In this document: in pieces, positions 21,410-62,400 of the stretch
Layout: each line of letters opens with the position of its first letter
Position numbering within the stretch: the stretch's first letter is position 1
NCBI GenBank assembly: GCA_030141605.1
Contig: JAQGDQ010000364.1
Coordinates: 62,001 to 126,000 of the forward strand
Direction: 5' to 3'
DNA length: 64,000 bases
Source of the DNA: Tubiluchus corallicola
Lineage: Eukaryota; Animalia; Priapulida
Notes under the pieces: generated by a model
The model's input: only the letters and a program-made list of their open reading frames with translations
Databases searched by the model: none
What the model was told of the DNA's origin: nothing
Program-made: the position numbers and the translations under genes

Positions 21410-21483
21410 CTGTCTCTCTCTTTTTCTCTCACTCTCTCCCGTCTCTCTCCTCTCGTCCTCTCTCTCTCCCTCCCTCCCCCTCT

Positions 21484-21571
<88 letters not shown>

Positions 21572-24500: not shown

Positions 24501-26503
24501 AGATTTGAACTACACCTCTTAATAGGGGTGGAGTTTGCACGCGTGGCGATTCCACGCTGTGTGAGTAAACATGGCATGACCCGGAGGGGGTAATTGCGTC
24601 ACAGGCTTTCTTCATAACTTGAATTTTGTTGTTCAAAAACTTCTTAAAACATACAAAAGAGTTAAAATGCTAACTGAGCGCAATTAATAATGTTTGAAGG
24701 TTAGTTAAAAAGCCTAACCATCACAGCCCTAAAGCTAACATAGTGATTATAGGCTAAGAACGCCTCTTATTTCCTGATCGCTGACATAAGTTCTGCTGGG
24801 TGTGAATACGGTAAACTGCGTATAACTCGAATTTTTGCGTATTTGGAACAGATCTTGTAGAATTGATTTTCCTTTTTGTTTTCCCTTTGACAAACATCAT
24901 CATGCAACTCAAATCCTCGCATAACGAAAACCGAGTTTCAGGTACAATTCTTAAGAATCTAACTGAAATTGCCTCGCCTATCTCGAACAGCCTCCCAAGT
25001 GAGAAGTCCTCCGCAAATGTGTGCACCATATTACAATTCTATCGGCTGGTTTCAGCAAAAATGCTACAATTTATTGTGTTATCTTAGTAGAACACTACAC
25101 ACAACATGGTTTAATGTAGGTCACAGTATTATTATTGCCGAATTCTTTTAACTATGCTACAATAGAGGTGGATTATTCATAAAAGTTGTTGTTGGTCATT
25201 TTCACAGGCTGTAGGTTTATTATCCGACATTGATGAGTGACTCACTCTTGTTTCCTTACGAATGATTTCTAACTCGATGAGTGTCTCAAATCTTGTTTCC
25301 TTAAGAACAATGTCTAACTCAATGAGTGACTCAAATCTTGTTTCCTTACAAACGATGTCTAACTCAATGAGTGACTCAATCCTATTTCCTAAGAATGATG
25401 TCTAACTCAATGAGTGACTCAAATCTTGTTTCCTTACGAACGATGTCTAACTCAATGAGTAACTCAAATCTTGTTTCCTTACGAACGATGTCTAACTCAA
25501 TGAGTAACTCAAATCTTGTTTCCTTACGAACGATGTCTAACTCAATGAGTGACTCAAATCTTGTTTTCTTGTGAACATTGTCTGACTCATACTTTTGCAT
25601 GACTCAAAGAAATTTCCTGGTCCCGAGGTGTTCGAGTTATGCGTAGTTTACTGTACTAGTATTATCCAGTGTGTTATGGTTTATAAACTGAATATAACAG
25701 AATACCCATTACTCAACTTCAAATGAAGGTGCCATGCAGAGAGCTATAGTGAAATATTGCAAGTGTCATTTATTATGAAATACTTGAAATTATTGCGCAG
25801 CGCTTGTTTGAAATATGAAGCTATTTCACAGTTCAGTTATGCCCACCCGTGCAGTTGCAGTAGGTCAGAGGTTAAGTGTACTACAGCTACGCGTCTTTGC
25901 TACAACTGACACGTGTCGAGTGAGTGAAGCAAAGCTGTCTGCTGCATCAGTTCAATAATTTCAGTTCTTTTACGTTGACTTTACTGAATTATGCATTAGT
26001 GTGTAGAGTGATTTACTAGCAGGATCTTGCTTGTGAACAACAAAGATGAATCAGGTAAGGTTCTAGCTAGCTGTTATAACTTTTACTAGTACAATAGCAT
26101 GGCCTGCGAGGCGTTGTCACGCGCCTTGTCTGGTTCACTTAACCTTTGACCTTTTCCCGATCATCATGAATCACTGGAAGTGTAAGAAGCCTTATTTGTT
26201 GCTTTCTTTGCAAATATTTCCAGCGTGCATTTTTTATTTACAGTGTATCGTTGTCAGGTTAACTCTCAAACACCGACACTGTTGACATTGCTTGTTGACA
26301 CTATGAGCTTAACTACTTGCGTTTTTACACATTAGGAAATATCTGACATAAAGGAGCAGCTGCGGGACGTCATGTTTTACCTGGAAGCTCAGCAAAAGAT
26401 CGGTGCTGAATCGGCTGATATCAGGCAGGAGATACAAGATGGACATATCATCATGGGAGAGCCAAGTACGTCCCAGGGAAAACGGACTCGGAAGAAGAGG
26501 TAG
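1959..26503 (+). CDS. BRAP: BRCA1-associated protein (BRAP2/IMP) RING E3 ligase with BRAP2 domain, RING-H2, zf-UBP and coiled coil; 15 coding exons, 588 aa
   Basis: Phase-consistent GT-AG exons: 1959-2034, 3222-3398, 7061-7274, 10068-10178, 11313-11505, 13128-13193, 15194-15276, 16806-16881, 17072-17139, 19486-19630, 21222-21260, 21680-21769, 22407-22520, 23975-24121, 26336-26503 (1767 nt). Family motifs: [123 protein letters not shown]. Confidence 0.97.
3990..4720. repeat. Dispersed repeat family of unknown class
   Basis: Inverted copy at about 47750-48360 (shared translation VFIDTGP...SQFKC in ORFs 3945 and 48162) and a partial inverted copy at about 25860-26200. Confidence 0.75.
6466..6964. 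mobile_element. hAT (Charlie-like) MITE, about 500 bp, copy 1
   Basis: TIRs CAGGGGTG(C/T)GCAAATT, 8-bp TSD ATCTAGAT; near-identical inverted copy at 22552-23051. Confidence 0.92.
7340..7851. mobile_element. Tc1/mariner-pogo (Tigger-like) MITE
   Basis: TIRs CAGTTATACCTCTGTTTTC / GAAAACGGAGGTATGACTG flanked by TA. Confidence 0.8.
7955..8470. repeat. Dispersed repeat family
   Basis: Diverged direct copy at about 48720-49200; short piece at about 11670-11770. Confidence 0.7.
8480..9323. repeat. 27-bp minisatellite, about 31 copies, in BRAP intron 3
   Basis: Unit CTAGAGAATAATGTTGAAAGTGCTGGT; explains repetitive ORFs 8271-9359 and 8648-9376. Confidence 0.97.
11794..12341. mobile_element. TTAA-flanked non-autonomous DNA transposon (Kolobok-like), copy 1
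   Basis: TTAA flanks, imperfect TIRs of consensus AGGAARACCGGAYGATTG; inverted copies at 16118-16665 and 23190-23740. Confidence 0.85.
14000..14480 (+). mobile_element. 3' fragment of an RTE-like non-LTR retrotransposon
   Basis: Degenerate translation [17 protein letters not shown]...[12 protein letters not shown], typical of an RTE ORF2 C-terminus; internal 31-bp duplications. Confidence 0.7.
14455..15025. repeat. Dimeric minisatellite (alternating 36- and 42-bp units, 78-bp period)
   Basis: Units GACAGGGTAGCATGGAGTTAATGGGAGGTTGCGGGT and GACAGGGCAGCATGGAGTTAATCAGAGGTAGTGGGTGACAAT. Confidence 0.93.
15514..15738. repeat. (AAT)n microsatellite
   Basis: Visible directly. Confidence 0.95.
15840..15990 (-). 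mobile_element. tRNA-derived SINE with conserved core
   Basis: On -: A-box-like TAACCTAGTGG, B-box GAGTTCGATAC, then core CCAAAGACTTTAAAAATGGTAC..GCTGC; related core at 32340-32545. Confidence 0.65.
16118..16665. mobile_element. Kolobok-like MITE, copy 2 (inverted relative to copy 1)
   Basis: TTAA flanks; reverse-complement match to 11794-12341. Confidence 0.85.
17440..18010 (-). mobile_element. 3' fragment of non-LTR retrotransposon ORF2 with C-terminal zinc motif
   Basis: ORF 17592-17912: STKLRFL...[15 protein letters not shown]...[18 protein letters not shown]. Confidence 0.8.
19335..19472. repeat. 21-bp minisatellite just upstream of the BRAP exon 10 acceptor
   Basis: Unit TGTGTTCATGTTTGTGTGCAT, about 6.5 copies. 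Confidence 0.9.
19701..20340. mobile_element. TIR-bearing non-autonomous element
   Basis: Imperfect TIRs of about 45 bp (GTGTGCTTGCATAGCAA..CGTCCAT.AGT.GGCA); direct copy at about 57820-58372 and an end fragment at about 22100-22190. Confidence 0.75.
20425..20765. mobile_element. Foldback MITE with B-box-like motif in both arms
   Basis: Arms at about 20458-20530 and 20668-20740 are reverse complements and include GAGTTCAAATCC. Confidence 0.65.
21333..21570. repeat. (CT)n microsatellite
   Basis: Visible directly. Confidence 0.97.
22552..23051. mobile_element. hAT (Charlie-like) MITE, copy 2 (inverted)
   Basis: TIR CAGGGGTGTGCAAATT, 8-bp TSD CTGTAGGT. Confidence 0.92.
23190..23740. mobile_element. 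Kolobok-like MITE, copy 3
   Basis: TTAA flanks; same orientation as 16118-16665. Confidence 0.85.
24809..25653. mobile_element. pogo/Tigger-like MITE carrying an internal 45-bp minisatellite (25232-25570)
   Basis: TA-flanked TIRs CGGTAAACTGCGTATAACTCGAA / TTCGAGTTATGCGTAGTTTACTG; unit TGAGTGACTCAAATCTTGTTTCCTTACGAACGATGTCTAACTCAA. Confidence 0.75.
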
Positions 26504-43604: not shown

Positions 43605-45392
43605 ATGGCAAGTCTTTGCTTATATGTGCTTGGAATATTTGTTACTTTAGCAGGTAAGCTGTAGTTTTATAATAAGTCAGAAATTGACTTGTTCGCAGTT
43701 TGTTTAACTGACGGACTGACCGACCGACCAAGTGACGGATTAATAATTTGTTAGTTGAGTTATTGACAGACTAACTATCTGATGTGTTATTTTGTTTGCT
43801 TCTTTGAGAAATCAATAATGTTGACGGACTCTTGGGTGATGAGTCAGCTAGTTCAAGTGTGCTTAGTTACCTGGGTGCACTACCTATTAAAATGTTTGTC
43901 CGTTTATTCGTGTCAGCCTTGTGTAGTCTCACACCTTACTTATTATTACCACAGGTGTTATGTAAGATGGTTCTTATGTAATATGATCATATACTGTATG
44001 GAAAAATAAAGAAAAAATGTTCATTTATTTCTTCGTTTAATTTTGTTCTCCTGTTTGTTATTGCATTTGCTTGTTGTCTTTTTTACACATGAAACTGTTA
44101 AAATGTTTGTTTAATTCGATTTTTACAGTTACTGGATCGTCAGTGAACTCACTGCCCTGTGCTTGTGGATATATCTATGATCCGGTGTGTGGTTCTGATG
44201 GAACAACGTATGCCAGCGAGTGCCTTCTTCAATGTGCCAGAGCGGAAATGAGCTTCTTCCGGAGAAGTAAGAATTAGTAGTGTTTTCTGTTTATCTGTAT
44301 GTCACTTCAGTTTCTTCCAGAGATGTGAGCATTAGTAGTGCGTTCATTTTTGTCTACGCCACTTTAGCTTCTGCCAGAGATGTAAGCATTAGTAGTGTAT
44401 TCATTTTGTCTCTACGCCACTTTCACGTCTTCCAGAGATATAAGCAATAGCAGTGTGTTCTGTTTGTCTGTATGTGATTTCAACTTCCTCCAGAGATGTA
44501 AGTCAACAGCATAAGCCTAGTAAGCCAACAGCACAAGCTTACTAAGCCAGCATCATAAGGCTACTAAGCCAACAGCATAAACTTACTAAACCAACAGCAT
44601 AAGCATAGTAAGTCAACAGCATAAGCCTAGTAAGCCATTGCCATAAGTCTACTAAACCAACAGCATAAGCTTACTAAGCCAACAGCATGAGCCTAGTAAG
44701 CCAACAGCATAAGCCCTGCAAAGTTTTGTTACATTATTGAATGTTCTCTTGTTTTTAGTGACCTACAAAGTGGAATGTTATGGACGGTGTCCTTGCGTTG
44801 ACTCAACACCAGAGCCCACACTTCCTGAATCTTGTCCGGATATATGTCCGTTTGATTACAAGCCGGTGTGTGGAAGGACAGTGGGTCCATCAACTTACAC
44901 CGAGTGTAGAGAATATGCAAACTCATGTGTTCGAAACGTGTAAGTATTGATTATTTTATTCTTTGAAATATTCTGGGACTTTTTTAATTCCAAAGAGTCT
45001 TGTGCAAGTAATTGCTTTGCATTTTTGATGTGAAAGAGCCTTATGGAAGTAATAACTGTGCGTTTAATTTTTACGCACTTTAAAATCACAAAGGACCTAT
45101 TTTTTTAATGATTTGGGCTGATTTTTTTAATGCTTTTAAAAGATTACTTTTGTGCTGCACAGCTGAACTAAAGCTCTTCCAAAAGAATTTGCTAAACTCA
45201 AATGTGTAATACCTCACTATCCATCCCATGAAAGAGTGTTCTAAGATTTTGAAAAACTGGCCAAGCAAAGCGTCGAACTCCCATTTGACTGACAAATAAA
45301 TGGTTTATTTTTTCAGTGCTGAATGCAGAGCAAAGCAAGAAAATCAAAACAACAGAATAATTAACTGCAACTGCGAGGCAGCAAGCTATTGA
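43605..45392 (+). CDS. Secreted two-domain Kazal-type serine protease inhibitor, 147 aa, 4 exons
   Basis: Exons 43605-43653 (signal MASLCLYVLGIFVTLA), 44129-44266 (CACGYIYDPVCGSDGTTYASECLLQC), 44759-44939 (CPDICPFDYKPVCG..YANSC), 45317-45392 (AECRAKQENQNNRIINCNCEAASY*); phases 1, 1, 2 are consistent. Confidence 0.92.
44251..44715. repeat. 58-bp repeat spanning the exon 2 donor (44251-44503) followed by a 21-22-bp minisatellite
   Basis: Five units ..CTTCC(A/G)GAGA(T/A)GT(A/G)AG.., then AAGCCAACAGCATAAGCTTACT repeats. Confidence 0.85.
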
Positions 45393-45850: not shown

Positions 45851-47483
45851 TAAACTAGGGATCGTGTTCTTCTCAGTTAGTCATTTGAGGTGCATTCACA
45901 ATTCACAGCAGTTGTCACTGCAGTTTCTGAGCTGTCACTGCTTTAACTATTTTTATTTGTAGATAACTAAGTTTTAACAAGAGCAATAAATGCTAATAGC
46001 CTATTGTTATACAGGAGACACAGACATAATGAGGTCAAGAATCATTAAGTGAATCAGATACATGTACTCAGTGATTTGTCATTCAGGAAAATACGTGGTT
46101 CTACCGGCATGTAGAGATAAAACCAAATTATGTTGTGCCTCAAAAATGTAAAAGAATTGTTGTAAAGAGAGAGAGGGGCAGAGACGGTGTGTGCGAAAGA
46201 GAGAGAGGTAGCAGCAGGGAGGGGAGAGAGAGAGAGAGAGAGAAGTGGCAAATATCGCACGTCTTGCATATTTTGTTGATGTTGTTAAAGTGGATGATGT
46301 TTGCTGCTTTATTCCATTTAAAACAAGGTTTTCTTTCTTTAGTTACTCTTCAATTATTTCTGTATACTATTACACAATTCTTTTAAAAGCTTAAAGCTCA
46401 TTTTTTAATGGAAAAGTGTCATAGCAATTGTTGCCACCATTGTTGTTACTGCTATTATCGTTTCTGTTATTGTTTCTGCTGTAATCATTACCATTGTTGT
46501 TGTAGTTGCAAGTGGAGTTGTAGCAGATCCTGAACTTAATAAAAAGATAATCACAACTGCCAATTATCAAATGTTGTATCACATTATTATCTGTATCGTA
46601 ACTGTTTTAAACTATTACCACATTATTACTGATCCCTTACTAACTTGGTAGAAGTAAGATTTTCTGTTTATTGGCACAGAAACGAATATTATTATTAACC
46701 CAGATAATGCATTCTTTGCTCGTGGATGATATAATTACCTAATAATGTCTTTACCGAAAGCAGTTTATCGTATTATTAACGATTTATTATCATCATACTG
46801 TAGTTTTACAAAAAAATTTGTAAAAAAGCTTGTTTTGTACATCCTTAATGCAAACGAAAATCTTTTTTAAAAAGAATATTAGACGTTTTAATGAACTGAT
46901 AAAGGCCTACTTTCCTGTAGTTTTTGCTGATCAGTTTATGAACAGATTACCTACAAAACTGTTAGGTAAGATGTGCAAAGATACTTCACTAGACGTTTGT
47001 GTAGATGTGATATAAAGTATACGGATTACGTTCATAGACTACAAATTCTTAAGTTACAACCATTAGAATAAGGGGGTTAATTTTTACCTAAAACGGTTTA
47101 CAAAATTTGCACACCTCATTTTGGGCTTAGGGGGCATAACTTTAAATTATATAAAAATGACTGTAGATTGAATGTTTGCAAATTCACTTTTTGTAACAGA
47201 ATCGTAGATATTTGAAATTCTTTTACTTACTGACAGAGTTAATGCCCCTAATGTTAAAGATGATACATCATTGTTAGAGATTGAAAACTTGTTGCAACAT
47301 TGGTCCTAAATTTGGTCGTAAGTTGGTAAAAGAGAGCCATCTGTAAGTGGTCCGCCTGGGTGGCTTCTCTCTTTTCTCTTGTATTATACTATAATACTAT
47401 GTTGCAAATAATAAATCAATCAGTCAAAAACAAAAAGTAGCTTTTAAAAAGAGAACTCCAAAGAGACAATGATTACAATGTCG

Positions 47484-50046
47484 TTATCTGGAGAAACGAA
47501 TGCTTGAGATGTATCCATTGCGCATGCACATGCATCTAAACTCTCCCTCTTCTCTGCCCAGTTCTTCAGCAAGAGCTTCAATATCCGTCTCTTGAATTGC
47601 ATCATCGTCACCATTGTTCAAGTCGTCGTCGTCGTCGTCGTCAGCATCTTCTTTCTGATCAGTCGCGTCTATCTCGTTATCAACTGCAGCATAAAAAGGC
47701 AGATAAAGTTAGTAACATTTTATTAAATGGAGCTGATACAGGACATGTGCACAACAATAAGCCTTTTCACAGTTTTGTGCGCACGCGCAGTTGCTGTACA
47801 GGTCTTTACTACAACCGTCACATTACGCATGTTTACAGCAAAGCCGTCTGCTGTACCAGTTCAGTAACTTCGGTAATTTTACGTGGACTTTACTTAATTA
47901 TACACTGGTCTGTGCGTAGAGTGATTTACTAGCAGGATTTCGCTTGGGAACAAGGAAAAATGAACTAGGTAAGGTTCTAGCTAGCTGCTAAAACTGTTAC
48001 TATTGTAATAGGATGGTGTGTGTGGCGTTGTCAAGTGCACACAAATGCGTTGTCTGGTACACTTAACCTTTAACTTTTTCACGATCATTATCAATCACAG
48101 GAACTGTGAAAAGGCTTATTAGAGATTTCTTGCCACTAGCTCGTAAACACTAATAAGCCTTTCACAGTTCCAGCGATTGATAATTGTCGCTAGCTCGTAA
48201 ACACTGAGTGAAAAAAACTCTAAACATCAACAGGCAAAACAAAACGAAAACAGACCTAAAGCAAAACCTACATTTAAACTGACTAGCGGTAATCGGTCCT
48301 GTATCGATAAACACACGATCATCATCAATCGGTGGAACTGTGAAAAGGCCTGTTTCCCTAGCTATTATTATCACGTGTTGTAACCTTACAATTAAGAAAT
48401 TTTGAAATGCTGGATTTAATTTTTTATCCCTAGAGGCACGACATATTGATGGCAAACGACTTCGCAATGATTGCATTGTTTCGTTTCATTATCCCAAATT
48501 CATGCGTTTAATCTTGAAGAGGTTCACCTTCTCTTTTGTTTATTATGCTTCCCATTCTTCTCCTGTTTGCTCTCCAAGGTTGAAAGCGGGAGACACTAGA
48601 GGCTTCCGCAACACATTCAAACACCTGCAAAAGCACCTGATGCTGAAAATTTGTAAATTAGTTATGGGGAGAAGACATGGCATTCAGCGTGTTGGCTTTT
48701 TCGGTTTTACTGTGACTTAAAGCACAAGGAAACCCTTCATAAACATAAAGCTTGAAAAATTCGTTTTGAAATTTTATACCACTTACATACTTCCTTTTTG
48801 CATGCAGGACTTCAATTGGCAGTCACGCTGTATAAAACATATAAATTTAAACTCCCGCGATGACCGTTAGACGCAGCCATTTTCACGACAGGTCATTTGA
48901 AACAAGTTTAGATAACATTTTTTAAAGTTTGAAAAAATAATCAGAGCATTCATAGCGCACAAGTCACCAACTAAATAAAATTTAAAATTACTCTATCTTG
49001 TCAATAAGATTAAAAATACGTTTTTTGGTTAGTGAGTTGTGCACCCTGGAGGGTGAGTCAGCGACATTTTACCAATTGGTGAAAACATTTTAAATAATTA
49101 ATAATTTTCTTTTCTAGTTACATAAGTCTCTCTAGCAGGTAAGCGAAAATCTAAGTAATATACATTTGCACGGAGTCTTTTGAGATATAATTTAACATTA
49201 CCCTTTCTTCCCTTGATTTACGTTTCGTACGTGACGTCATGTAATGGCGACTTCGGAACAGTATTGCGGGAGATATGAAAACAAACTAAGATTCTTTTCA
49301 GTGCGAGTACAATAAACGCACAAAATTGTTATTAAGTAGTATAATTTTCTAAGGCGATTTTTCTGAAACCTACTTCAGGTACCCCTTTTCTTGTCCTTTA
49401 AAGCAAGACAGGATAATTTTTCACGAACTACTCCATTTTCAAGTCCAATAAAAAGTATACATTTTAACACAATTTTGGATAAATAAGTCAACTGTGTAAA
49501 ATAAACAACAAGTAAACGAAAATGTATCAAAAATGAAGTCATAAGTCATGAAGCAGGTGTGAATGGGTCGAATCATATATTTGTTCAAATACGAAATGCT
49601 TCAGCAAACATTATGAAAGCCCTCATCTGTGCAATTAATACCAGCCATTTTTAGAACTTAAAGACAGATTTCTTTGTTTATACTAACCAACGTTAAAGAA
49701 AGACATATTCTACCCATTTTCAAGTCCGATGAAAAGTATATATTTTAACACAATTAATATTGCAGAGCGTTTCTGATGATCAAATAATAGATTAAAAACT
49801 TAATTAAGAGCGGGCGAACCCTATCAACAATAAATTTTACAGTTCATTAACAATTGCACCATCAGCAGTATATTTCAGTAAATCTCCAATATTAAATCCT
49901 TTTGTCACTGTACAACTGATTGCATTATTTGTGTTAATCTCCTTGTTGTTTCTATAAGTTATTGCAGTACGCAAAACCACATAAATTTCATTGTATGTAT
50001 TATGTGATAATGACAATAAATTGCTTGCTTACTTACTTACTTACTA

Positions 50047-50143
<97 letters not shown>

Positions 50144-50665
50144 AAACATATACATACAAACTTAGCAGATGTGACATAAATAATATAACATTTAAATAAT
50201 AACAATAACTGTCTTAAAAGTTATCATAAATACATAAAAAGGAATCTAAGATCTGATCGCATTAAAATGTTTAGTTCTCCTAATGTAATTTCGGATGCAG
50301 TCAAAAATTTTACAGTTAAGAGCAACATTAAAATGATTACTTCCGCAATGACAACAATTCACTATTACTATATTGTAAAATATTTATATTTGAAGATATT
50401 TGAATAATATGTTATTTAATTGGCTGAACATAGCATCTCTGGCTTGAAAATAATTAGGGCATTCTAGGAAGAAATTTTCTGATTTTTTAAAATAATAACC
50501 ACAATCACAATTTGAAGAGACAAGTAGACCATCAGAAAATTTGCAGCCTTTCAAAAACAAATCACCATTTTAACTCCTGATTAATAAAGTATACATTACT
50601 AACTAAAAAAGAGAAAATTTTACCACAATAAGCAGAAGAAGACTCGCTAGATGTAGCCGCTTCAT
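47484..50665 (-). CDS. Uncharacterised secreted prepropeptide A, 112 aa, 3 exons
   Basis: Exons 50624-50665, 48528-48624, 47484-47683 (GT-AG, phases 0 and 1) give MKRLHLASLLLLIVVFECVAEA-SSVSRFQPWRANRRRMGSIIN-KR-EVDNEIDATDQKEDADDDDDDDLNNGDDDAIQETDIEALAEELGREEGEFR-CMCMRNGYISSIRFSR*; TATAAGAA about 65 nt upstream. No transcript evidence available. Confidence 0.8.
50026..50142. repeat. (TTAC)n microsatellite
   Basis: Visible directly. Confidence 0.95.
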
Positions 50666-51619
50666 GTCGCTTGTTGAACGTCCTGACTTCTGATTCTATT
50701 CGTGTGCCTGGCCCACTTTTCTAACGTGTTCTTATACCCTAGTTTTATGTTCATAAACGTAATAATATTACCCACATGCGACCTAAATTCTATGAACTAC
50801 AATCACAATATTAATTTCCAGTACGAGTTCATTTTGCGATCTTCTGGGGGCTAATTTGTTGGTCTTGTAATTGGTATTTCGTTGCAAAGATGCATCCTCG
50901 TAGGTGACAAACTGTGTTAGTATGACAACCTGCAGGTACTGGTTTATTAAGAAGCTTTATCAACTAACGAGGCGTGTCATGTCGAATGAATCATACTGGC
51001 AAAATGTCACCAATATTGTAGCGATGCTGTGGGTCTGATTGTGGCTCCCCTAGTCCCCTAGGTCGTCCCCATGCATTCCGGAGGCCAAGTGCTCAGGGTT
51101 CAATGCCAGGATGATGTAAACTTTATAAACACAGACAAAGATTTGTAGAAATAATTCACCAGTGAATTTTGTGTACTTCATGGTGGTTGTGTCTTCGGAA
51201 CAGGTGCTGTGATAGTAAAGAACCTCTCTGTTTACTTGCTGAATCAAGGAGGCCATTCCATGTTAGTTAATGGGTTTACACCTGTTATGTAGTTGCTTAG
51301 TAATGGATCAAACCATTAGAATGTAGGGGTAGGGTGTGAAATGAAATGATCTTTCTCCGTCGCACTGTGCTACTAATTCAACACCTACAACATTGGAGGT
51401 GACGATATTAAAATAAGCTAAATATTTAATCTAGCAGGTTAATGAAATTTGCCATTATAATGACATCAGAAACACAAAAACTTCATCTGACAAATGAATA
51501 AACTGAATAAATTTCTTTGCATTTTCTACCTGTATAATTATATGACTTCCCGTCTGCTAGCCTATTTTCAAACGTACAGCATAGTTAACTCCTTCAAAAT
51601 AGATCTTATAACACCTGTG

Positions 51620-52348
51620 ACTTTTCTGTTACTGTGTGAGCACAGACATAATTAAATCAACACAAGTTAGCTTTTCTGTTACTGTGTGGACACAGACATA
51701 ACAATATCAACACAGGTTAGCTGTTCCGTTACTGTGTGAGCACAGACATAACTAAATCAACACAACTTAGCTGTTCCGTTACTGTGTGAGCGCAGACAAC
51801 AATATCAACACAAGTTAGCTTTTCTGTTACTGTGTGAGCGCAGACATAACTAAATCAACACAAGTTTGCTGTTCCGTTACTGTGTGAGCACAGACATAAC
51901 TAAATCAACACAACTTAGCTTTTCTGTTACTGTGTGAGCACAGACATAATTAAATCAACACAACTTAGCTTTTCTGTTACTGTGTGAGTGCAGACATAAC
52001 TAAATCAACACAGGTTAACTTTTCTGTTATTGTGTGAGCACAGACAACTAAATCAACACAAGTTAGCTTTTCTATTACTGTGTGAACACAGACATAACTA
52101 AGTCAACACAAGTTAGCTTTTCTATTACTGTGTGAACACAGACATAACAATATGAACACAAGTTAGCTTTTCTGTTACTGTGTGAGCACAGACATAACAA
52201 TATCAACACAAGTTAGCTTTTCTGTTGCTGTGTGAGCACAGACATAACTAAACCAAAACAAGTTAGCTTTTCTGCTACTGTGTGAGCACAGACATAACTA
52301 AATCAACACAACTTAGCTTTTCTGTTACTGTGTGAGCACAGACATAAT
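51620..52348. repeat. 50-bp minisatellite, about 14.5 copies, between the divergent peptide genes
   Basis: Unit CTTTTCTGTTACTGTGTGAGCACAGACATAACTAAATCAACACAAGTTAG. Confidence 0.95.
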
Positions 52349-52768
52349 TTCGACTCGAGTTCGAAAGTCAGATATTCGATTCGACTCGAATTCACTTTCT
52401 AATAGAAAAATACTCGCCTCTTTTACCTACTTACTTAACTATGTTTCTACTAATTAACCTATTTACCTACTTACCTATCTATTTAAAATCTCACAAGTAT
52501 TGCAGCACATTGTGAACTTCCGCTTGGCATGACCCATTAGCCTGATAAATTTAATATTGGCACATAATATTAATAATATGATGCAGGAATACAAAAGTAT
52601 TATGAGGGTAATAGTGTGGCTCCTTCAATAAGAGCCAGTGACCCAAATGACTGTTTATAAGTAGCGTGTAAGGAAATCTGCAACACTGTGTCCTCTACAC
52701 AAGCCTGCGAGGGTTAGTGGTTTCTCTGGCTTCTAGAATCTACCGTTCCTTCGAACATTTATACGAAA

Positions 52769-55337
52769 ATGAGGAAAGTCTTTGTGATTTTGCTAATCAG
52801 TATGGTGGTAAGAATTTTCGCTTATATTTACTACATGAAACTGATAACAAATTTCAATAAATTTCAAATTAAAATATGGCGTTATTCTTAACACATAAAG
52901 CCTTGAATGTCCTTTATAGTCTCACAACGATTATTCATTTATTTCAGTCCTCATCAGCTGAATAGACTGTGCTGACGAACTGAGAGTGACTCTCAGTTGA
53001 GTTGGTCAGGTAAGTTAACTCTTCGGCTAGTAGCAGAGTCTATTTATCTCCCAGGTTAGCAGCAGAGTCTACTTAACTCTCAGGTTAGCAGCAGAGTCTA
53101 TTTAACTCCCAGGTTAGCAGCAGAGTCTATTTAACTCTCAGGTTAGCAGCAGAGTCTATTTAGCTCCCAGGTTAGCAGCAGAGTCTATTTAACTCCCAGG
53201 TTAGCAGCAGAGTCTATTTATCTCCCAGGTTAGCAGCAGAGTCTATTTATCTCCCAGGTTTGCAGCAGAGTCTATTTACTTCTCAGGTTAGCAGCAGAGT
53301 CTATTTAACTCCCAGGTTAGCAGCAAAGTCTATTCAGCTGATGAAGCCCGTTAGGACGAGCCCTCTTGAAATACATAAATAATCATGCAACGAGTTTATA
53401 TAGGCAGGGCCTATTATGCACTAATTAAGTAGTTAAACGAAGCCAAATAGGTAATGATTAAGCAGACCTGAAAAAAAGAAATTGATCTGTAGCTTTGACA
53501 AATATGGTCATTAATGGCTGCATTGTCGAGAATTTTTTAATTTCTTGACAGTTCTAGACGAAATACCCAAATGTTCACAAATTCGTACTTTAAAGTATCT
53601 GGATGTTTTGCCATGATAAATCGGTAATCATTATGAGACTATAAATGCATTCAACGTTTTTGATGTTAAAGACTGCTAGTCTCAGAAGTGCTTTCTTATA
53701 TGTTAAGTATTATTTTGTCGAGTTACGACATATATTGTTTAAACAATTTAAAACATTGTAAGCCAGTATTAATCACTTAACAATGGAGGACCTTAACCAG
53801 TAGCGGGGAGGGGGCTCGTGGCTAAAATCACGGGACGTGCAGCTTCAGAAAATTTTTAGCCATTGTTTTAATACTGTGTTACTGTGTAAAACGAAACAAA
53901 CATGTGTAATTTTAATGTTGTAATTTGCAATTGTAATTTTAAACAAACGCATGCGCACAACAACAAACACACCATTGTGCTTTGCAATTGTAATTTAAAC
54001 AAACGCATGCGCACAACAACAAACACAACATTGTGCTTTGCTGTGAAGCAAACAGTACCTTCACGTGCTCCGAGAGACTTCTATTCAATGTTAGGTAAAT
54101 TGCCGACTGGTTTGTGTATAGATACTGTGGAACTGCAGCATCCCCTATTATCCAATATTCAATATAATAGGTCTTTTTTCTTTAGTCCTTTTTTATATCT
54201 GTACGAAACCAGACTTATTATATCGAATGTTACCGATAATGTTGAGTGAAAATAGGGGGTGCTGCAGCTCCACAGTATCTATACACGAACCGGATCAGAC
54301 AACAAAATAGCTGAGATAGTGTATGGCAGAGAAAACCGTCCAAAAATTTCCCAACCTTTCACTAAGTGGATCTTGCGCTACTGAACTTCGAGGCGAAACA
54401 CACTTTGCTACAAGTCCTTCATTTGTTTCACGTGTTATTTAACGATAACTAAAATTCCAAAATTGATTTTTAGATAGTGGGAAGCTTAGTTAGCGTGGAT
54501 GGTAGGCGCTCACGTCGTAGACGAATGAGACACAGAGTCAGAAAAGATGGTAAGACTTAAAACATTAAATATTATATTAAAAGTTGCAACATCTTAACTG
54601 TTTCGTTTTTTCAAAACAATGTCAAACGGTGACATTCACGAGTTATGTAACAGTTAGTGTACTGGAAAACTTGTGTAACTGTAAATTGGTAACGTTTTTT
54701 CGTTATTTTTACCAAAAGAAATCAAGTTTATTTTTCTCTGTAACATTTCGGGCACGAGTACAAAAATATATAAAGGCAAATAGAGTAGTAATTGTATTAA
54801 TAAAGAAGTATCAAGTCAAAGAGATAAGGTAGCGAATTGTTAAAGAGTCAGCAAACCAGCGACCCCACATTTAGAAATAAGAAAAATTCTTTTGGGTACT
54901 GGTTAATATGGCAGATTAAATAATGATGTTGTCTGCTAAACAATTGCTCATAAAGATCATATCATATATATATATATATATATATACACACAATTTTCGT
55001 CTGTGTAAGTTTGATTTCTTCTATATGTTATCAAGTTATTTACAGCAAAATTAATAAGTAATGCATGTTAAAAAAGAAATTCTAGTTCACAGTTGACTCA
55101 ACTTCAGTTGTAAGCAGCCAACGCCCGAGGAAATCATTAAGATTATTTTGTCATTTTTGTGAAACAGTAACATTAAATACTTGTGTTGCAGTTGGCGATG
55201 ACGCTGGAGAATTCGAAGTTATGATTGGTTCTAGAGAGTCACGTGAGGTAGATGGCTACAACGCAGATATGTCATCAGATAATCACTTTCAAGTGAAGAG
55301 AAGCACTCCACCAGGGACACACGCTCTTTATCATTAA
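52769..55337 (+). CDS. Uncharacterised secreted prepropeptide B, 86 aa, 3 exons
   Basis: Exons 52769-52807, 54474-54549, 55192-55337 (GT-AG, phases 0 and 1) give MRKVFVILLISMVIVGSLVSVDG-RRSRRRRMRHRVRK-DVGDDAGEFEVMIGSRESREVDGYNADMSSDNHFQV-KR-STPPGTHALYH*; TATAAGTA at about 52656. No transcript evidence available. Confidence 0.8.
53010..53335. repeat. 29-bp minisatellite flanked by an inverted repeat
   Basis: Unit CAGGTTAGCAGCAGAGTCTATTTAACTCC, about 11 copies. Confidence 0.93.
54114..54286. mobile_element. Short inverted-repeat element (MITE-like)
   Basis: Arms of about 35 bp: GTGTATAGATACTGTGGAACTGCAGCATCCCCTATT and its near-perfect reverse complement. Confidence 0.7.
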
Positions 55338-56994
55338 AATATTTGAAAAAGTATGCACTTAGCACAATTTGCGTTTATGTGCCATTTAAAACTTGGCGTT
55401 TTTACATGTAGAACAAAATCAATCAATATGCTAATCTTGTAACATTTTACTAGTGATTCGCTTTCACTCAATACATACGATTCTGGTCTCTAAATACTTA
55501 AATTGTTGCAAACTTCGAAAGTCAACCAAATTCGATTCTTGAATTCGCTATAAACTGTTAGAGAATGCTCACCCCTATTGTTTAATCATTGTACGTATAG
55601 AAACCAACCGTCTATAATAAATATTTGCATTGCACACAACAGAAAAGTGTTTATTGAACTATAGAAAAAGATGAATAGAAAGCTCCTGCACTGTGCTGCG
55701 CTGTTATTTTGCCTAAAAAATTACTTTTTACTTGTAAATATTGACAAAAATTGATAATGCAATACACAATAAATTTCATTTTCTGAATGTGCAATTTATT
55801 ACGGTAAACAGTATTTAGAATTGGCTGTACCTTGTCCCTTTCTAGTATAACTGTACAGTTTCGAGCTCTATTGAATGGCTAATGATGAAGCCTTCGAATA
55901 GCATAAATTAGAAAATTAAAATGTTTTTAACCAAACAAACATACATTTCAAAGTTGTTAAAAACATTCTAATTTTCTGTTTGAAAAATTTTAGATCTTGC
56001 TTGTTTTAATTCTTGTATTTATGTTTCTGTTTGCAATTCATTGAATAAACTACATAGTATGGCTCTACTTTCCTGTCTCTGACTGCAATCTGACTGCAAT
56101 CCAAGCTGAAGAAATTACTACAAAACGCTGATTTTGTTCAAGTACAATAACAGTTTATTATTTTATTTACAAATGACAATAAGTAATTAATCATTTAACG
56201 AAATCTTTACAATCAAATGTGTGCAGAATGATGAATCGCGGTTAAATAAATGAAATAACAATGATTAAATAAATGAATATGAATAAATAAATATGAATAA
56301 ATGAATATGAAAGTAATCCGCTGCCCAAACTACTGATTAAATACGAAGAATTAAACATTACATCTATGGAATATCGAAAACTATGACGAAATATTTACAA
56401 ATGCACTGAAAAAAATATAGTATGAAGTAATGGTATATCAAAAACTATAAGAATCTGAAAAATCAAACATAAAATTAATGGAATAATGAAGTATTTACAA
56501 AATGCATAAGAAATAAGAAAAATAAGCAAAGTCTTGAATCGGTGATATACAAAAATACTAATTTAACCAAATGTATCTGTAACAAACTGCACAATAATAT
56601 CAGGATATATATGTAATAGAAATTAAACTTGCAGTGAAAAATATCACTTTGCACGAATGGAGAAATGCATGTAACAGCAAAGAACTTGTGGCGCGAACGC
56701 GAAATTGTGTTTGTGTGGTAATAATTCTTTCACAGAACTCATTTTTGAAAAAAAATAGTGTTTTGCCTTTCAATATTTTAAGGAGTGGTTTGTTTTGACT
56801 TATAGTTTAAGATTAGCTCCAGTTGGGGCAGCTAGGACATCACTCTCTGCCAGTACTGGAGTCGGAATTTCCCTAGACAGGGTCCTTCTCAGATCGTATG
56901 ATTTTACTTGACAGACAGGAATGTCAACTGTTAAATCGTTTCCCTATTTTTCATGGCAGAAATGAGTCTGTAGGCTCAGCTTGTTCAAACTTTT

Positions 56995-57404: not shown

Positions 57405-59529
57405 CTCTCTGTACCTCTCTAATAAACTGAATTAGATTTAGATTAGATTTTAGATTTATTTATTCATCCATTTAGCACATACAGAAATAAAAGTTACAAA
57501 ATTACTAATTAACAGTGCATTACAGTGCTATGAGCGCAGCAGAAGAAATTAACTTATGAGCTATGCTCAACATGGATTGGACTAAATTAATTATATTAAC
57601 AACAACTAAAAAAAATACGTCAAATGAAGCGAAGCAAACAGATGCGACAAAACGGTAATAATGGTTCCGCCTCGCATTACATGGCAAAAAGATGGTGAAC
57701 CGTTGGATCAGAGAAGGGGAAGGGTTCGAGTATTTCCATCTGATGCACTCTATATAGAATCTGCTGAGGTGAATTCAAGATGTTTATTTATGTAACACTG
57801 ATTGTTAACCATCTCGAATATGTGTGCTTGCATAGCAAAATCGTCCATAAGTCGGCAATTAGCCTTTTTTAGTTATTCACATATCTCAAATCTCCATTTC
57901 ATGGGGATCATTTTGATACCAAGCTCATACCTCTATGTTATTCACAAGCTGAGATAATCCACGTTGAAGTTGAGGCTATGAAGTGAAAAACATAACCTTG
58001 AGAAAATCACTGTAAAAGTTAGCCATTGTTTTTTGTTGCGTGTCTTCAAAACCCTTAGCAACCGCACAAATGCTGGTTGCTATGGACTTTGCAAGATCAC
58101 TTTGAAATTATATTTAAATCCAGCAGATGGTTGTTCCTGACAAAGATCTGGGCTTGGCAACAGAAAAAACCCGAAGCAAAGTGACAGCTTTTAGGAGCTA
58201 CTATCGGAGTTTAGTAAATGCTAGAATATAAAAGTCCAATAGATTTACGCTTGTTTTTACAAAAAACAAAGAATTGACATTTGATCAAATTTTTGGGTTG
58301 TTCTACCTTGAAGCATCATAACGTAGTTTTAACTATGCCGACTTATGAACGATTTTGGTTTGCAAGCACACATTTGTCAACTATACATAAGTGGTACCAA
58401 GTTCGTCACTCCATGTTATTTCTATTCTGAGATAATTCACGTTGAAGTTGAGATGCCTACTGCGCACTGAAAAACATAACTTTGAAAAAATCGCTATGAA
58501 AGTTAGCCATTCATGAATTTAATTGAATTGAAATCTTTAAAGTATTCAACTGCTTAAGAGTTGAGATATTTTAAACATGATTGTATAATTATATATTGCG
58601 TAAAGTGTAATTTATTAATTGTTTTTCTTTTGTTTTTAGAAGACTTTGTGCTTCACGTGTTTATAAGGTTGGATCGTAGTCCACATCAGTACAAAAAACT
58701 TAAATCGGCAGCAGCTTCTCCAGTCTCCAGGGAAAAGAAATCAGCATTACGGCAGCAAACTTTGATCATAATTCTTTTATAACTCATTCAATATTAATTT
58801 TATTCTTTATAAATTTTCATTTAAACGGCTGAAACAAACACTACTCAAGTCATTTTTTATTGTTAAAAAATACCTTCTTTTTAATTGGTTGGCTAACTTT
58901 ATGGTAATACAAAATATACCAAAAATGTTAATTACGATGACTACTATACTATACTATAACTGCTATACTATACGTTGCCTACGATTACTACTTCTCAGTA
59001 GTTTTATCTTAGTACACTCACAATGGAATGCCTTTACTTACTTAAGCAACTTGGTTATGCTCCATATGTAAACTTGATGCTCCATTTATCATACCTAATT
59101 CTGAAATCTTCATCAAGATAATTGCGCATATAATTAATTACTAATAGCAATATTACTTACAGGGAGGTTGACTTTGGTAACTTTTAGTTTTTTGCCACCC
59201 TTTCACCAATCAGTTGAATATCATTAACTCAGACAATTTATTCATTTAATAATTTTGTCACTTTGTATCATATTATCGTTTCATGCTCTGTGTTTTTCTT
59301 GTAAAAAGGTGATTAAATGAAGATACTTATACTATCACTGAAAATGCCATTTTGCACAAAGCTTTTATGAATTAATTTTGTACGTATGCATTATTTGCAT
59401 CGTATGTACTGTATTGTGTGATGCCAATGTACATGTATTTGAACAATAAATTAAATTAAATTGAATTGCACAATTTATGGATTATGGAACACCGCCACAT
59501 TCTATGACAACAATTAAAATGGTAAGACC

Positions 59530-62400
59530 TTACCATTCAAGAATTTTGGAAACACAGGAAAGAATTTAAATGGGTCTATAATTTTTCAACTTGGACTTGT
59601 CACCAGCTTTAAAAATTGGATAACCTTAGCTATTTTCAGAAAGTCTGGGACTATACCTGTTGAAAATGACTTGTTAGACATATTAACTAGAGGTTCAGCA
59701 ATACAGTTGATGGATTTTTTAAGGATAATTTGTGATATATCATCATACCCTGTACTGTTTTAATTTTTTAAATTATTTGCCACATTTAAAAGCTCCGCTT
59801 TGTCAATTGGAAGCAACTGCATTGAATTCCTACATGCATTTGGTAAGTATGAAAAATATGATGTATTTGTAGTGGGAATTTTCTGCTAGAGTTGATCCTA
59901 CATCTACAAAATAGTTATTAAAACCATCGGATATTTCTTTTGATGTCATTTATCATTGGGTTATGCTGTGATTTTTTTAAATGTGACTGTTCTATATGAG
60001 AAGTATCTCTTTTATTAATAGCTAAATTTATAATTTTCCATGTTTTTCTCATGTTATTCATATTACTTTTAATTGTATTGGCATAATAATCTTTTTCGGC
60101 TTTTCTTAGTATTGACGTTAAGTTATTTCTATAAGATTTATAATGGTCAATGTTCAGGTCAGTAGGGTTTTTTAATTTTAGCTTATATAATTTATTTTTG
60201 TGTTTAATTGAGTGTATCAACCCGCTTGTTAGCCAAGGTTTATTCCGTGGCTTTACTATTTTTGTGACTAGTGGAAAGCTATCATTGTAAATATTGTAGT
60301 AATCTTTAAAGAAGGATTGAAATGACGAGTCAGGGTTTTGTGACCAGTCATGGGATGCTAGTTTGGACTTGAGGTCTGCGATGGTGCTATCATTAAACAT
60401 TCTAAATTTTGAAACTATTGGTTGTGAATGAAGTGTCACTTTTAAGCTAGTTACTGAATAAATGGGAAAATGGTCAGATATATCACTGTAGAGAATGCCC
60501 GAGTTTAAATTGTCATTTGACACATAGTTTGTAAATATATTATCGATTAAAGTTGCTGAATAAGCAGTAATTCTTGTTGGTTTGGTGATTAAGGGATACA
60601 ATGAATGACTAAGTAGGCAATTGAGAAAGATTCAGTTCCTTCGTGCGAGTCACAGTTAAGCAAGTTTAAGTTGAAATCGCCGCAGATAAAGATGTACTTG
60701 TTGTTTTCATCAATTATTTTAGAGAGAAGGTTATCTAAACCACTAAGAAATACTGGGATACTGGTACCCGTAGGTCTGTATAACACTCCAACTAAGATAT
60801 TTTTTGTAAGTTCTTGGGTAATTTCAACAATCAGTGATTCACAGGTTTGTTCGTCGAAACAGTCTAAGTCACTACTCTGTCTTGCTCTGCCGTTCGATTA
60901 GTATCATTAGTACATATCAAGTGTTGCCAAATTCCATAAATGTTACATAACAGACCATTGTGGTCATTCTGTACCTTGTTAAAACATATTGAACAATTAT
61001 CATTTTGATTATTAGTAATCATAGTAGTTATTGAACGTTAGTACCAGATAATCGTTTCACCTCTGCTTGGTACTTCGGGCAGGTTTTGCTTCTGGCCTCG
61101 TGGTCCCTTTTGCAATTGGAGCACTTCTTTTCGTTGGAGTCACAGTCTGATCTATTGTGCTTGCCAGAGCAGATACCGCACACCACAGTTCTGCTGCACC
61201 ATTTTGAGACATGACCAAAATTTTGGCACTTGAAGCACCGTAGCGGTTTTGGCTTGGTGATAAACTGTTCCACACCACAAATTAGTTGACCGATGGCTAT
61301 TCCTTTCCTGTTGGCTTCATTCAATATGTCCGCTCTACTGAATTTCACTTTTACGAGAGTCATTGGTTTACCACTTTTGAACTTGAAACGTTCTATAGCT
61401 GCATCGTAATCAAATTGCTGGACGTTATGCAGGATTTCATCCTCTGTCATGCTGGGATCACAGTCTCGTACTAGACCCCAGAATTGCATCTTAGGTTTTC
61501 TCGCATTCGTATTGTCACCTAGAAAACATGGCTGCCATTTCTGAAGAATGTCGTTTGCTGTTTCGGTGCCTGGAAGTTGCAGTTGAATTTTTCCAGTTGC
61601 CGTCCTGAAAGCTACTTCAAAACGAGTTCTAGGGAAATAGTGGCTAAGGTTCTTCTTTATAGACATGCTAGTTTTTGGGATGTCTTTATCATTAACGTTC
61701 TCAATGAGTATCGTTCTGTCCGGGTCGTACAAATACGACACACTTTGCTGGCTGGTATTTCTCGTGGTTTTCGCTGTAACTTGACCTAAGTTACGTGATA
61801 CAGCGTCCTTGTATAAACAATTCTGCGATCTCCCCAGTGCTACAAGTTCTCGATTTATGTTCGTAATTTGGTTTTCCATGTTTGTGATTTTGTTGATCAT
61901 GAGTTCCTCTCGTGGAAGATCATCTTCGCTGTTGTTCAGCAGACGAATAATTTCGATCAACTTCTTGTTACTTTTCTCATGGTTTATCAAGCTGTAGGCT
62001 ATTGAAGCTAACGACTTCCTAGAATAACCCAGTAAATCATCAGTTTTTTGGTAAAACAACACTGCTTTCAGTTGAGCTTGCGTAGACAGGGGGTGACTGG
62101 AGTCTGAATGTTTTGAATAGCATTTGTCACAGATAATTGCTATTACTTTTCTTTGCTTGACTAGCCCATTAGATTTCCTGCAGAATTGGCAACTATTTCT
62201 GGTGTTTAGCATAGCACTTGACTGACTCGCGTCGTTGGTATCTGGCATATCGACCCAAGGAAAGCTAGGTGCCAAACTTTTCTATTCATTAGCTAATTAG
62301 CCGGAATAGTTGTAATGATCTTGTTTTGCTAGTCCTAGGCACAGCACGTTAACTGAGATGACCAAATTTCCCGACAAAACTCAACGTGTGGCCAAAAGAA
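59530..62400 (-). mobile_element. CR1/L2-group LINE: intact gag-like ORF1, broken ORF2, 3'-truncated
   Basis: ORF2 relics: APE motifs VGVLYRP, ICGDFNLNLL, KPTRITAYSATLIDNIFTN, SDISDHFPI, KPWLTSG; frameshifts and deletions; ends near SKILE at the start of RT. Confidence 0.92.
61028..62248 (-). CDS. LINE ORF1 nucleic-acid-binding protein with three zinc knuckles (406 aa from first ATG)
   Basis: Open frame with RCFKCQNFGHVSKWC, CGICSGKHNRSDC, CSNCKRDHEARSKTC and a coiled-coil-like segment. Confidence 0.85.
   Translation of the reverse strand: MPDTNDASQSSAMLNTRNSCQFCRKSNGLVKQRKVIAIICDKCYSKHSDSSHPLSTQAQLKAVLFYQKTDDLLGYSRKSLASIAYSLINHEKSNKKLIEIIRLLNNSEDDLPREELMINKITNMENQITNINRELVALGRSQNCLYKDAVSRNLGQVTAKTTRNTSQQSVSYLYDPDRTILIENVNDKDIPKTSMSIKKNLSHYFPRTRFEVAFRTATGKIQLQLPGTETANDILQKWQPCFLGDNTNARKPKMQFWGLVRDCDPSMTEDEILHNVQQFDYDAAIERFKFKSGKPMTLVKVKFSRADILNEANRKGIAIGQLICGVEQFITKPKPLRCFKCQNFGHVSKWCSRTVVCGICSGKHNRSDCDSNEKKCSNCKRDHEARSKTCPKYQAEVKRLSGTNVQ

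What the first reader, a model, noticed from the sequence alone, without database searches (positions are those of the whole stretch)
47484..55337. Head-to-head pair of unannotated secreted prepropeptide genes with a shared design: candidate new peptide family
Seen: two divergently transcribed 3-exon genes absent from the ORF track, with ATGs 2.1 kb apart and a TATA box each. Both have exon 1 = first 13-14 aa of the signal peptide (phase 0), exon 2 = end of signal plus an Arg-rich peptide containing RRRM and ending in a dibasic site plus an acidic residue (KRE / RKD, phase 1), and exon 3 starting V-D/G with an acidic spacer, a basic residue and a short C-terminal peptide. Sequence similarity is otherwise very low. 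Known: signal / cationic peptide / dibasic site / anionic pro-region is the design of mussel myticalins and similar invertebrate host-defence precursors. Inference: fast-diverging paralogs of a lineage-specific antimicrobial, toxin or signalling peptide family, possibly co-regulated. I do not recognise either sequence, but I could not run a database search.
Basis: partly seen in the sequence, partly recalled or inferred. Interest (0 to 1): 0.85.

Follow-up and report, generated by a model that had tools for sequence, protein, structure and literature searches.

The report
Orphan defence-peptide gene pair, priapulid-like worm
Two small back-to-back genes, likely from a priapulid (penis) worm, are predicted to encode secreted precursors in which an arginine-rich peptide is followed by a cutting site and an acidic tail, so they likely make antimicrobial peptides of a familiar design but with no relative found in the databases searched.

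Summary
The two gene models are in the sequence as described: A (minus, 112 aa) and B (plus, 86 aa), GT-AG introns in phases 0 and 1, ATGs 2,104 bases apart. A design scan finds only these two; 0 of 184 simulated windows gave two (thresholds set afterwards). In public run X1, B exon 3 differs at three third-codon positions plus a 3-base insertion, as coding DNA does. No RNA was available, so splicing is unshown. No homologue was found. Best reading: host-defence precursors working like myticalins, Ciona linear peptides and nematode cecropins, but members of none. Corrections: the TATA boxes are weak; paralogy rests on intron positions, not protein similarity (shuffle p 0.13-0.75); B's last peptide overlaps a dispersed repeat, and the X1 contig stops matching inside it; B intron 1 holds a stop-containing cryptic exon. 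Added: A's last 18 residues are predicted as a beta-hairpin whose two cysteines cannot bridge its strands, so A may carry two payloads. The priapulid label comes from earlier notes. The scan noted like designs in sea squirts, not these sequences.

The parts
50624..50665 (-). Gene A exon 1: ATG and first 14 codons of the predicted signal peptide; phase-0 donor
   Evidence: donor in top 5.4% of GT
48528..48624 (-). Gene A exon 2: end of signal (A-x-A at residues 20-22, cleavage inferred), cationic peptide 23-43 (net +5), KR at 44-45, first acidic residue; phase-1 donor
   Evidence: covered without change by a 441-nt X1 contig whose base change at 48627 keeps the acceptor but would be a stop under the two longer acceptors
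47541..47683 (-). Gene A exon 3, acidic spacer (residues 47-94; net -23 over 46-94; predicted helix at 81-88)
   Evidence: codon score exceeded by 0.2% of stop-free windows
47484..47540 (-). Gene A exon 3, C-terminal cationic segment (residues 95-112, net +4, Cys97 and Cys99) and stop; predicted beta-hairpin turning at Asn102-Gly103
   Evidence: single-sequence prediction only
50732..50736 (-). TATAA 71 nt upstream of gene A's ATG (weak TATA-like site)
52656..52660 (+). TATAA 113 nt upstream of gene B's ATG (weak TATA-like site)
52769..52807 (+). Gene B exon 1: ATG and first 13 codons of the predicted signal peptide; phase-0 donor
   Evidence: donor in top 0.6% of GT
52948..53009 (+). Cryptic 62-nt exon in B intron 1 with strong splice sites and stops in all three frames, inside nested inverted repeats (52888-52942 with 53616-53669; 52951-52987 with 53308-53344)
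   Evidence: duplex energies -39.6 and -47.0 kcal/mol
54474..54549 (+). Gene B exon 2: end of signal (cleavage after Gly23 inferred), Arg-rich peptide 24-37 (net +10, 64% Arg) ending RK, first acidic residue; phase-1 donor
55192..55301 (+). Gene B exon 3, acidic spacer (net -8 over residues 38-73) and KR at 74-75
   Evidence: three third-position changes and a 3-nt insertion in an X1 contig; codon score exceeded by 1.9% of stop-free windows
55302..55337 (+). Gene B C-terminal 11 residues (net 0) and stop; overlaps a dispersed repeat at about 55316-55370
   Evidence: depth 654 against 14 just upstream, loose ends at 55316-55325 and 55370; the X1 contig stops matching at 55306

Best explanation
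A and B are likely two old, fast-diverging paralogous genes for secreted host-defence precursors, each predicted to be cut by signal peptidase and then at a dibasic site to release an arginine-rich cationic peptide that the acidic propiece would keep neutral until processing. Shown: the exon structure, open frames, charge blocks and coding-type variation in B exon 3. Inferred: splicing and secretion; cleavage after Ala22 (A) and Gly23 (B); convertase cleavage at Lys44-Arg45 (A) and Arg36-Lys37 (B); killing of microbes by binding anionic membranes or nucleic acid. B's peptide is a short poly-arginine type with few hydrophobic residues, so cell entry and polyanion binding is more likely than a classical pore. 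A's spacer is far more acidic (-23) than its first peptide needs (+5 to +7) and is followed by a second cationic segment predicted as a beta-hairpin, so A likely yields two peptides from one precursor. B's neutral tail is likely dispensable, repeat-derived sequence. Odds: genes real about 0.9, paralogues about 0.6, host-defence role about 0.55.
For: Gene models and charge blocks. Design scan against nulls. X1 variants in B exon 3: 3 of 3 listed substitutions (of 4 counted) at third positions, two silent and one Asp-to-Glu, chance 0.02-0.04, plus an in-frame insertion; in the next frame one gives a stop. The same tripartite design with a phase-1 intron just behind the dibasic site is described for myticalins, which are clustered paralogues and of which selected members are antibacterial. 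17 of 22 Ciona candidates have the same order of parts, and two Arg-rich ones of low hydrophobic moment are active. Nematode cecropins have an acidic pro-region thought to inhibit the basic peptide. The two other secreted-protein first exons in the window end in phase 1 after the signal, unlike A and B. A Kazal inhibitor gene lies tail-to-tail with A.
Against: No transcript, peptide or activity data. A and B do not align better than shuffles at protein level, whereas myticalin and Ciona families keep a conserved signal peptide. Both cationic peptides contain internal multibasic sites (A RRR at 35-37; B furin-type sites ending at 28 and 30) that could fragment them. Arg96, the putative second cut in A, is a single Arg followed by Cys. 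B's acceptors are weak and a stronger stop-containing exon lies in its first intron, so B could be poorly spliced or decaying. No kappa-B-like site was found between the genes.
Confidence: 0.55

Rival explanations
1. They are lineage-specific neuropeptide or hormone precursors: the multibasic runs are all cleavage sites, and the products are short peptides such as A 23-34, A 38-43, an acidic peptide that could be amidated at Leu88, and the cysteine-containing tail.
For: Signal peptide, dibasic sites and acidic spacers are also the neuropeptide layout (established knowledge). A has RRR, KR and Gly89-Arg90. Priapulids have many neuropeptide families, 25 in one proteome.
Against: No repeated peptide motif; no Gly before any dibasic site inside the mature regions (B's Gly23 is at the signal junction); no Pfam match for exons 2 or 3. 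Full cleavage of B's basic block would leave almost nothing. The alignments and supplements of the priapulid neuropeptide preprint could not be seen.
Confidence: 0.15
2. They are non-immune secreted products (reproductive, cuticle, mucus or adhesive proteins, or predatory secretions) whose opposite charge blocks serve self-assembly or storage, with partial or no cleavage.
For: Such proteins evolve fast and are often orphans (established knowledge). B's basic block is protamine-like (64% Arg, 14% hydrophobic). Cationic peptides joined by anionic Arg-bounded linkers also occur in spider venom precursors.
Against: The dibasic site sits exactly at the charge switch and at an exon end in both genes, as in myticalins. 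No repeats or structural motifs. I know of no venom system in priapulids (recalled).
Confidence: 0.17
3. A is a real gene but B is a decaying or mis-spliced copy, or one or both models are chance assemblies of short open frames.
For: B's acceptors rank only in the top 15-19% of AG, with four in-frame choices for exon 3 and a stronger stop-containing exon in intron 1. B's stop codon lies in a repeat and the X1 contig departs before it. The scan thresholds were post hoc.
Against: Coding-type variation in B exon 3; strong B donors (top 0.6% and 0.8%); exon GC 0.44-0.45 against 0.29-0.39 in introns; 0 of 184 nulls with two loci; the cryptic exon lies in inverted repeats that could pair over it.
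Confidence: 0.13

Closest known systems
Myticalins of Mytilus (PMC5577615: abstract and section 4 part 1 of 3 read; PMC12294457: abstract and passages)
   Same: Signal / Arg-rich cationic peptide (pI above 11, over 10% Arg) / Lys-Arg / anionic extension; a phase-1 intron a few residues behind the dibasic site; paralogues within a few kilobases.
   Different: Myticalin exon 1 is untranslated and the whole signal lies in exon 2; here a phase-0 intron splits the signal. Each signal matches 4 of 18 defined consensus positions (ungapped, by eye). The peptides are shorter (21 and 12-14 against 23-42 residues), have no amidation Gly, and A carries a second cationic segment after the spacer. Myticalins are restricted to Mytiloida.
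Ciona linear cationic antimicrobial precursors: Ci-MAM, Ci-PAP, KH.C7.94, KH.C1.640 (PMC7387483: abstract and section 4 part 1 of 2 read)
   Same: Short secreted precursors ordered signal / cationic / anionic helix; Arg-run peptides of low hydrophobic moment that are active; A has a predicted anionic helix at 81-88.
   Different: No sequence similarity was found; the screen there excluded Cys-containing products, and Ciona families share a conserved signal peptide, which A and B do not.
Nematode cecropins P1-P4 (PMC6780910: passages)
   Same: Ecdysozoan precursor with signal, basic mature peptide and an acidic pro-region thought to inhibit it.
   Different: Mature cecropins are conserved 31-residue amphipathic helices; A and B are shorter, Arg-dominated and give no Pfam match.
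Beta-hairpin antimicrobial peptides such as protegrin and arenicin (PMC13001179: passages) and the disulfide-linked dodecapeptide cathelicidin dimer (PMC8415029: passages)
   Same: A's last 18 residues are cationic, Arg-rich and predicted as one hairpin; two cysteines are present; inter-chain disulfide dimers have a precedent in ChDode.
   Different: The class is defined by intramolecular disulfides; in the predicted register Cys97 and Cys99 lie on one strand facing Ile108 and Ser106.
Complex spider linear-peptide precursors, cupiennins (PMC7889660: passages)
   Same: Cationic peptides separated by an anionic linker bounded by Arg, with Glu next to both Arg residues (A: Arg45-Glu46 and Glu94-Phe95-Arg96).
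   Different: Spider precursors begin with an anionic propeptide, repeat many units and have 11-13-residue linkers; A has one 49-residue spacer.

Membership tests
Myticalins | Signal / cationic peptide / dibasic site / anionic extension | tested here: met
Myticalins | Mature peptide with pI above 11 and over 10% Arg | tested here: met
   A 23-43: pI 12, 24% Arg; B 24-37: pI 12, 64% Arg
Myticalins | Mature peptide of 23-42 residues | tested here: not met
   21 (A) and 12-14 (B) residues by inferred cleavage
Myticalins | Phase-1 intron in the first residues of the anionic extension | tested here: met
Myticalins | Untranslated exon 1; entire signal and mature peptide in exon 2 | tested here: not met
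   a phase-0 intron splits the signal after codon 14 (A) or 13 (B)
Myticalins | Conserved signal-peptide consensus | tested here: not met
   4 of 18 defined positions in each gene, compared by eye with the consensus
Myticalins | Antibacterial activity and gill expression | not testable with these tools
   no assay; no RNA holder listed
Ciona LCAMP (Ci-MAM and the second family) | Signal, cationic segment, anionic helix in that order | tested here: met
   (helix predicted for A only; none for B)
Ciona LCAMP (Ci-MAM and the second family) | Family-specific conserved signal peptide or sequence homology | tested here: inconclusive
   by eye only a generic basic-then-hydrophobic start is shared with the consensus lines; the signal exons were too short for database search
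Nematode cecropins | Conserved 31-residue amphipathic helical mature peptide | tested here: not met
   lengths and composition; no Pfam hit for exon 2 of either gene at E up to 1
Beta-hairpin antimicrobial peptides | Short cationic single beta-hairpin | tested here: inconclusive
   predicted for A 94-111 with pLDDT about 80-90 from a single sequence; B exon 3 also gave a weaker hairpin, so short hairpins come easily to the method
Beta-hairpin antimicrobial peptides | Cyclised by one or more intramolecular disulfides | tested here: not met
   both Cys on one strand in the predicted register (definition)
Known neuropeptide precursor families | Conserved or repeated peptide motif, usually with Gly-basic amidation sites | tested here: not met
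   the dedicated neuropeptide HMMs were not available

The most novel reading that the evidence does not exclude
A and B found an undescribed family of priapulid host-defence peptides, the first candidates for that phylum in my searches, and precursor A is a two-payload design: a linear Arg-rich peptide and a C-terminal beta-hairpin, held apart and neutralised by one very acidic spacer, the hairpin being locked by disulfides between chains rather than within the chain.
Probability: 0.15. Interest if true: 0.68.

Novelty: new variant of a known kind. Interest (0 to 1): 0.42.

Why it matters
The precursor design is well known and has arisen in mussels, sea squirts and nematodes, so it is not surprising in itself. 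What is new is the sequences. My paper searches listed no described antimicrobial peptide from priapulids, three reviews contain no mention of the group, and big defensins are reported absent from it. If the taxon label from earlier notes holds, these genes give directly synthesisable candidates for the missing effectors of innate immunity in an early-branching ecdysozoan, and would be a further independent origin of the charge-balanced precursor. A's second, cysteine-bearing hairpin would be an unusual addition.

Tried and rejected
No whole genome is held, so paralogues outside the window could not be sought. RNA: no RNA holder listed; run X2 (RNA by guess) laid only on repeats near A and not at all on B, which says nothing on expression. 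X1 shows no cover at 47420-47523 (A's last codons); a hole is no finding, and 184 of the differences on the A stretch were not shown. Homology, all blank: word-indexed protein search with A exon 3 (lengths 35-114) and B exon 3 plus its open upstream stretch (lengths 44-140, 1 candidate, none scored); HMMER over 1.84 billion representatives with A exon 3 (0 at E 0.001); ESM Atlas (best 0.79, bacterial, below use); Pfam; PDB sequences (only acidic-composition hits at E 0.34-1); metagenome contigs (0 of 597 and 0 of 595 pattern hits confirmed); Rfam; earlier notes by sequence or place (none). These searches used single exons, never the whole precursor, and miss distant short peptides. Foldseek with the A exon 3 model: 0 of 144 matches at E 0.001. 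Dimer prediction for A's last 32 residues: no verdict, score 0.03. Taxon: one BRAP exon returned only 3 relatives at 49-56% identity and the exon alignment was too poor to use, so I did not test the priapulid label. Third family member in the window: the 4 extra loci of the looser scan borrow BRAP, Kazal or LINE sequence (3) or have weak splice sites (1), and none has phases 0 and 1. Longer acceptors for A exon 2 (48636, 48642) were rejected because the X1 base at 48627 would be a stop in them (one contig). Longer acceptors for B exon 3 are disfavoured, not excluded: the added stretch has a non-coding codon score (75% of stop-free windows score as high) and a branch-like word lies 25 nt before 55192, but 55168 scores slightly better as an acceptor. 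A 17-nt microexon at 55093-55109 would shift exon 3 into the frame where an X1 change gives a stop. A paper search for divergently transcribed antimicrobial genes returned 0.
Full report
Setting. The window is AT-rich animal DNA (GC 0.28-0.40). It holds a multi-exon BRAP gene at about 7.1-26.5 kb, a Kazal inhibitor gene at about 43.6-45.4 kb and a LINE-like element at 59.9-62.3 kb (label from my reading of the ORFs). Several earlier notes on other pieces of this genome call the animal a likely priapulid. My own attempt to place it failed, so that label is borrowed.

The observation. Both models are present. A (minus): 50665-50624, 48624-48528, 47683-47484, 112 aa. B (plus): 52769-52807, 54474-54549, 55192-55337, 86 aa. 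Introns are GT-AG in phases 0 and 1, frames are open, and the ATGs lie 2,104 bases apart. Exon GC is 0.44-0.45 against 0.29-0.39 in the introns. With matrices trained on BRAP and Kazal sites only, the donors rank in the top 0.6-5.4% of GT; A's acceptors rank in the top 5.5-6.1% and B's only in the top 15-19% of AG. A scan for three-exon models with signal, cationic and anionic segments finds A alone at the stricter acceptor cut-off (0 of 12 nulls) and A and B at the lower one. Nulls trained without repeats and without the locus gave one or more loci in 7 of 184 and two in 0 of 184; nulls that kept them gave 4 of 200 and 3 of 200. The thresholds were set with A and B in view, and looser ones give 6 real loci against a null mean of 2.2. 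The TATA boxes are only TATAA, a word found upstream of 284 of 2,443 ATGs.

Outside evidence that they are coding. No RNA run holds the stretch, so splicing is not shown. Run X1 (kind not on record; its contigs run through introns) holds 0.21 of the words; it may be related to the source of the window and is not independent support for presence. One 441-nt contig covers A exon 2 with 2 differences, both in the acceptor tract; the one at 48627 keeps a pyrimidine-AG acceptor but would be a stop if either longer in-frame acceptor were used. One 348-nt contig covers 55112-55306 of B with 4 substitutions, 3 of them listed, and a 3-base insertion. The three listed fall on third positions (Ala silent, Val silent, Asp to Glu) and the insertion adds one residue; in the next frame one change gives a stop. 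Chance for such a pattern is 0.02-0.04. It may be an allele or a close paralogue. Codon scores favour the acidic parts (0.2% and 1.9% of stop-free windows score as high) but not exons 1 and 2 or the tails (23-62%), which are short and biased.

(i) B's last peptide is doubtful. Bases 55316-55370 behave as a dispersed repeat in X1 (depth 654 against 14; loose ends on both sides), the loose letters resemble the window back to about 55294 (about 20 of 33 positions, by eye), and the contig above stops matching at 55306 with 148 letters left over. (ii) B intron 1 holds a 62-nt exon-like stretch (52948-53009) with stronger splice sites than the real exons and stops in all frames; it sits in nested inverted repeats that could pair over it. 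(iii) B exon 3 has four in-frame acceptors; 55192 is favoured, not proven. (iv) Paralogy is not visible in the proteins (BLASTP E 0.16-0.21; shuffle p 0.13 and 0.75) and only weakly in DNA (exon 1: 14 of 500 shuffles; exon 2: 2 of 500; exon 3: 283 of 500). The better argument is structural: both have a phase-0 intron inside the hydrophobic core and a phase-1 intron one residue behind the dibasic site, whereas the two other secreted-protein first exons in the window end in phase 1 after the signal. (v) Nothing supports co-regulation beyond proximity; the 2.1-kb gap holds a 727-nt tandem array and no kappa-B-like site under two patterns.

Anatomy. By the small-residue rule at -3 and -1 (established knowledge; SignalP not available) cleavage falls after Ala22 in A and Gly23 in B. 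A then has a 21-residue peptide (net +5, 24% Arg), Lys-Arg, a 49-residue spacer (net -23) and an 18-residue tail (net +4, Cys97, Cys99). B has a 14-residue block (net +10, 64% Arg, 14% hydrophobic) ending Arg-Lys, a 36-residue spacer (net -8), Lys-Arg and a neutral tail. No Gly precedes a dibasic site inside the mature regions. AlphaFold2 on A exon 3 alone gives a helix at 81-88 and a hairpin at 94-101/104-111 with pLDDT about 80-90 there, pTM 0.31. In that register both cysteines lie on one strand and one face, opposite Ile108 and Ser106, so they cannot close the hairpin. B exon 3 gives only a low-confidence model, also with a small hairpin, which warns that the method builds such hairpins easily.

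Relatives. None found. All used single exons, and short fast-evolving peptides escape such searches, so this shows no close relative, not absence of distant ones.

Mechanism. The best reading is a charge-balanced host-defence precursor: secretion, storage with the acidic spacer masking the cationic peptide, release by a proprotein convertase, then binding to microbial membranes or polyanions. Each of these steps is inferred from the anatomy and from described families: myticalins (PMC5577615, abstract and section 4 part 1 of 3; PMC12294457, abstract and passages), Ciona linear peptides (PMC7387483, abstract and section 4 part 1 of 2), nematode cecropins (PMC6780910, passages) and anionic prodomains in general (PMC10608444, passages). 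A's excess acidity and cationic tail suggest a second product; its release would need a cut at the single Arg96, which fits the Glu-x-Arg linker ends of spider precursors (PMC7889660, passages) but not the usual even spacing of basic residues for convertases (recalled rule; Arg90 is six positions back). Disulfide-linked dimers of short Arg-rich strands have a precedent (PMC8415029, passages). Rivals are neuropeptide precursors (0.15), non-immune secreted proteins (0.17), and a decaying B or chance models (0.13).

Comparison and novelty. They work like myticalins but fail membership on gene structure, signal consensus and peptide length; they are not cecropins; A's tail fails the definition of beta-hairpin antimicrobial peptides (PMC13001179, passages). 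Searches for priapulid antimicrobial peptides (9 papers, 8 listed; 74, 20 listed; uninformative; 5 of 5 listed) showed none by title and abstract start. PMC7056985 (passages) covers priapulid immune signalling only, and PMC7203481 (one passage) reports big defensins absent from the phylum. The preprint on priapulid neuropeptides (10.1101/2024.07.20.604414, passages) has its sequences in figures and supplements that I could not see; they may bear on the neuropeptide rival. The library lacks most subscription journals. Earlier notes record like designs in sea squirts, none on these sequences.

Verdict. Real-looking orphan genes of a known design in a likely unexplored phylum, with an unusual second segment in A; unproven splicing and function. 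New variant of a known kind; interest 0.42.

Noticed in passing
window 43605-about 45400 (+): Secreted Kazal-type protease inhibitor gene, at least four exons (43605-43653, 44129-44266, 44759-44939, from 45317), tail-to-tail with gene A; exon 2 matches PF00050 at E 2e-10. The last exon runs into a 30-nt tandem array.
   Followed up: partly
window 63482-63401 (-): A first exon with a signal peptide, an acidic start and a phase-1 donor, with a high codon score; no continuation was found before or beyond the LINE-like element. Possibly a disrupted secreted-protein gene.
   Followed up: partly
window about 57655-57790 (+): Isolated open stretch that looks like part of an immunoglobulin domain (my reading of the translation; not confirmed by a family search).
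   Followed up: no
window about 7097-26500 (+): BRAP (BRCA1-associated protein) gene, at least 12 exons; used to train splice and codon models.
   Followed up: partly
window 52888-53669: Nested inverted repeats around a 29-nt tandem array (53028-53334) in B intron 1, a foldback-like element whose left end carries a strong stop-containing cryptic exon.
   Followed up: partly
window 59918-62281 (-): LINE-like element: a zinc-knuckle ORF of 417 aa and broken endonuclease / reverse-transcriptase-like frames (label from my reading).
   Followed up: no
window 47800-48320 and 48717-49470: High-copy dispersed repeats fill most of both A introns (depth in the tens of thousands in X1; copies at 4043-4391, 7955-8444 and 25893-26196).
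   Followed up: no
window 51621-52347: 50-nt tandem array of 14.6 copies between the two promoters.
   Followed up: no
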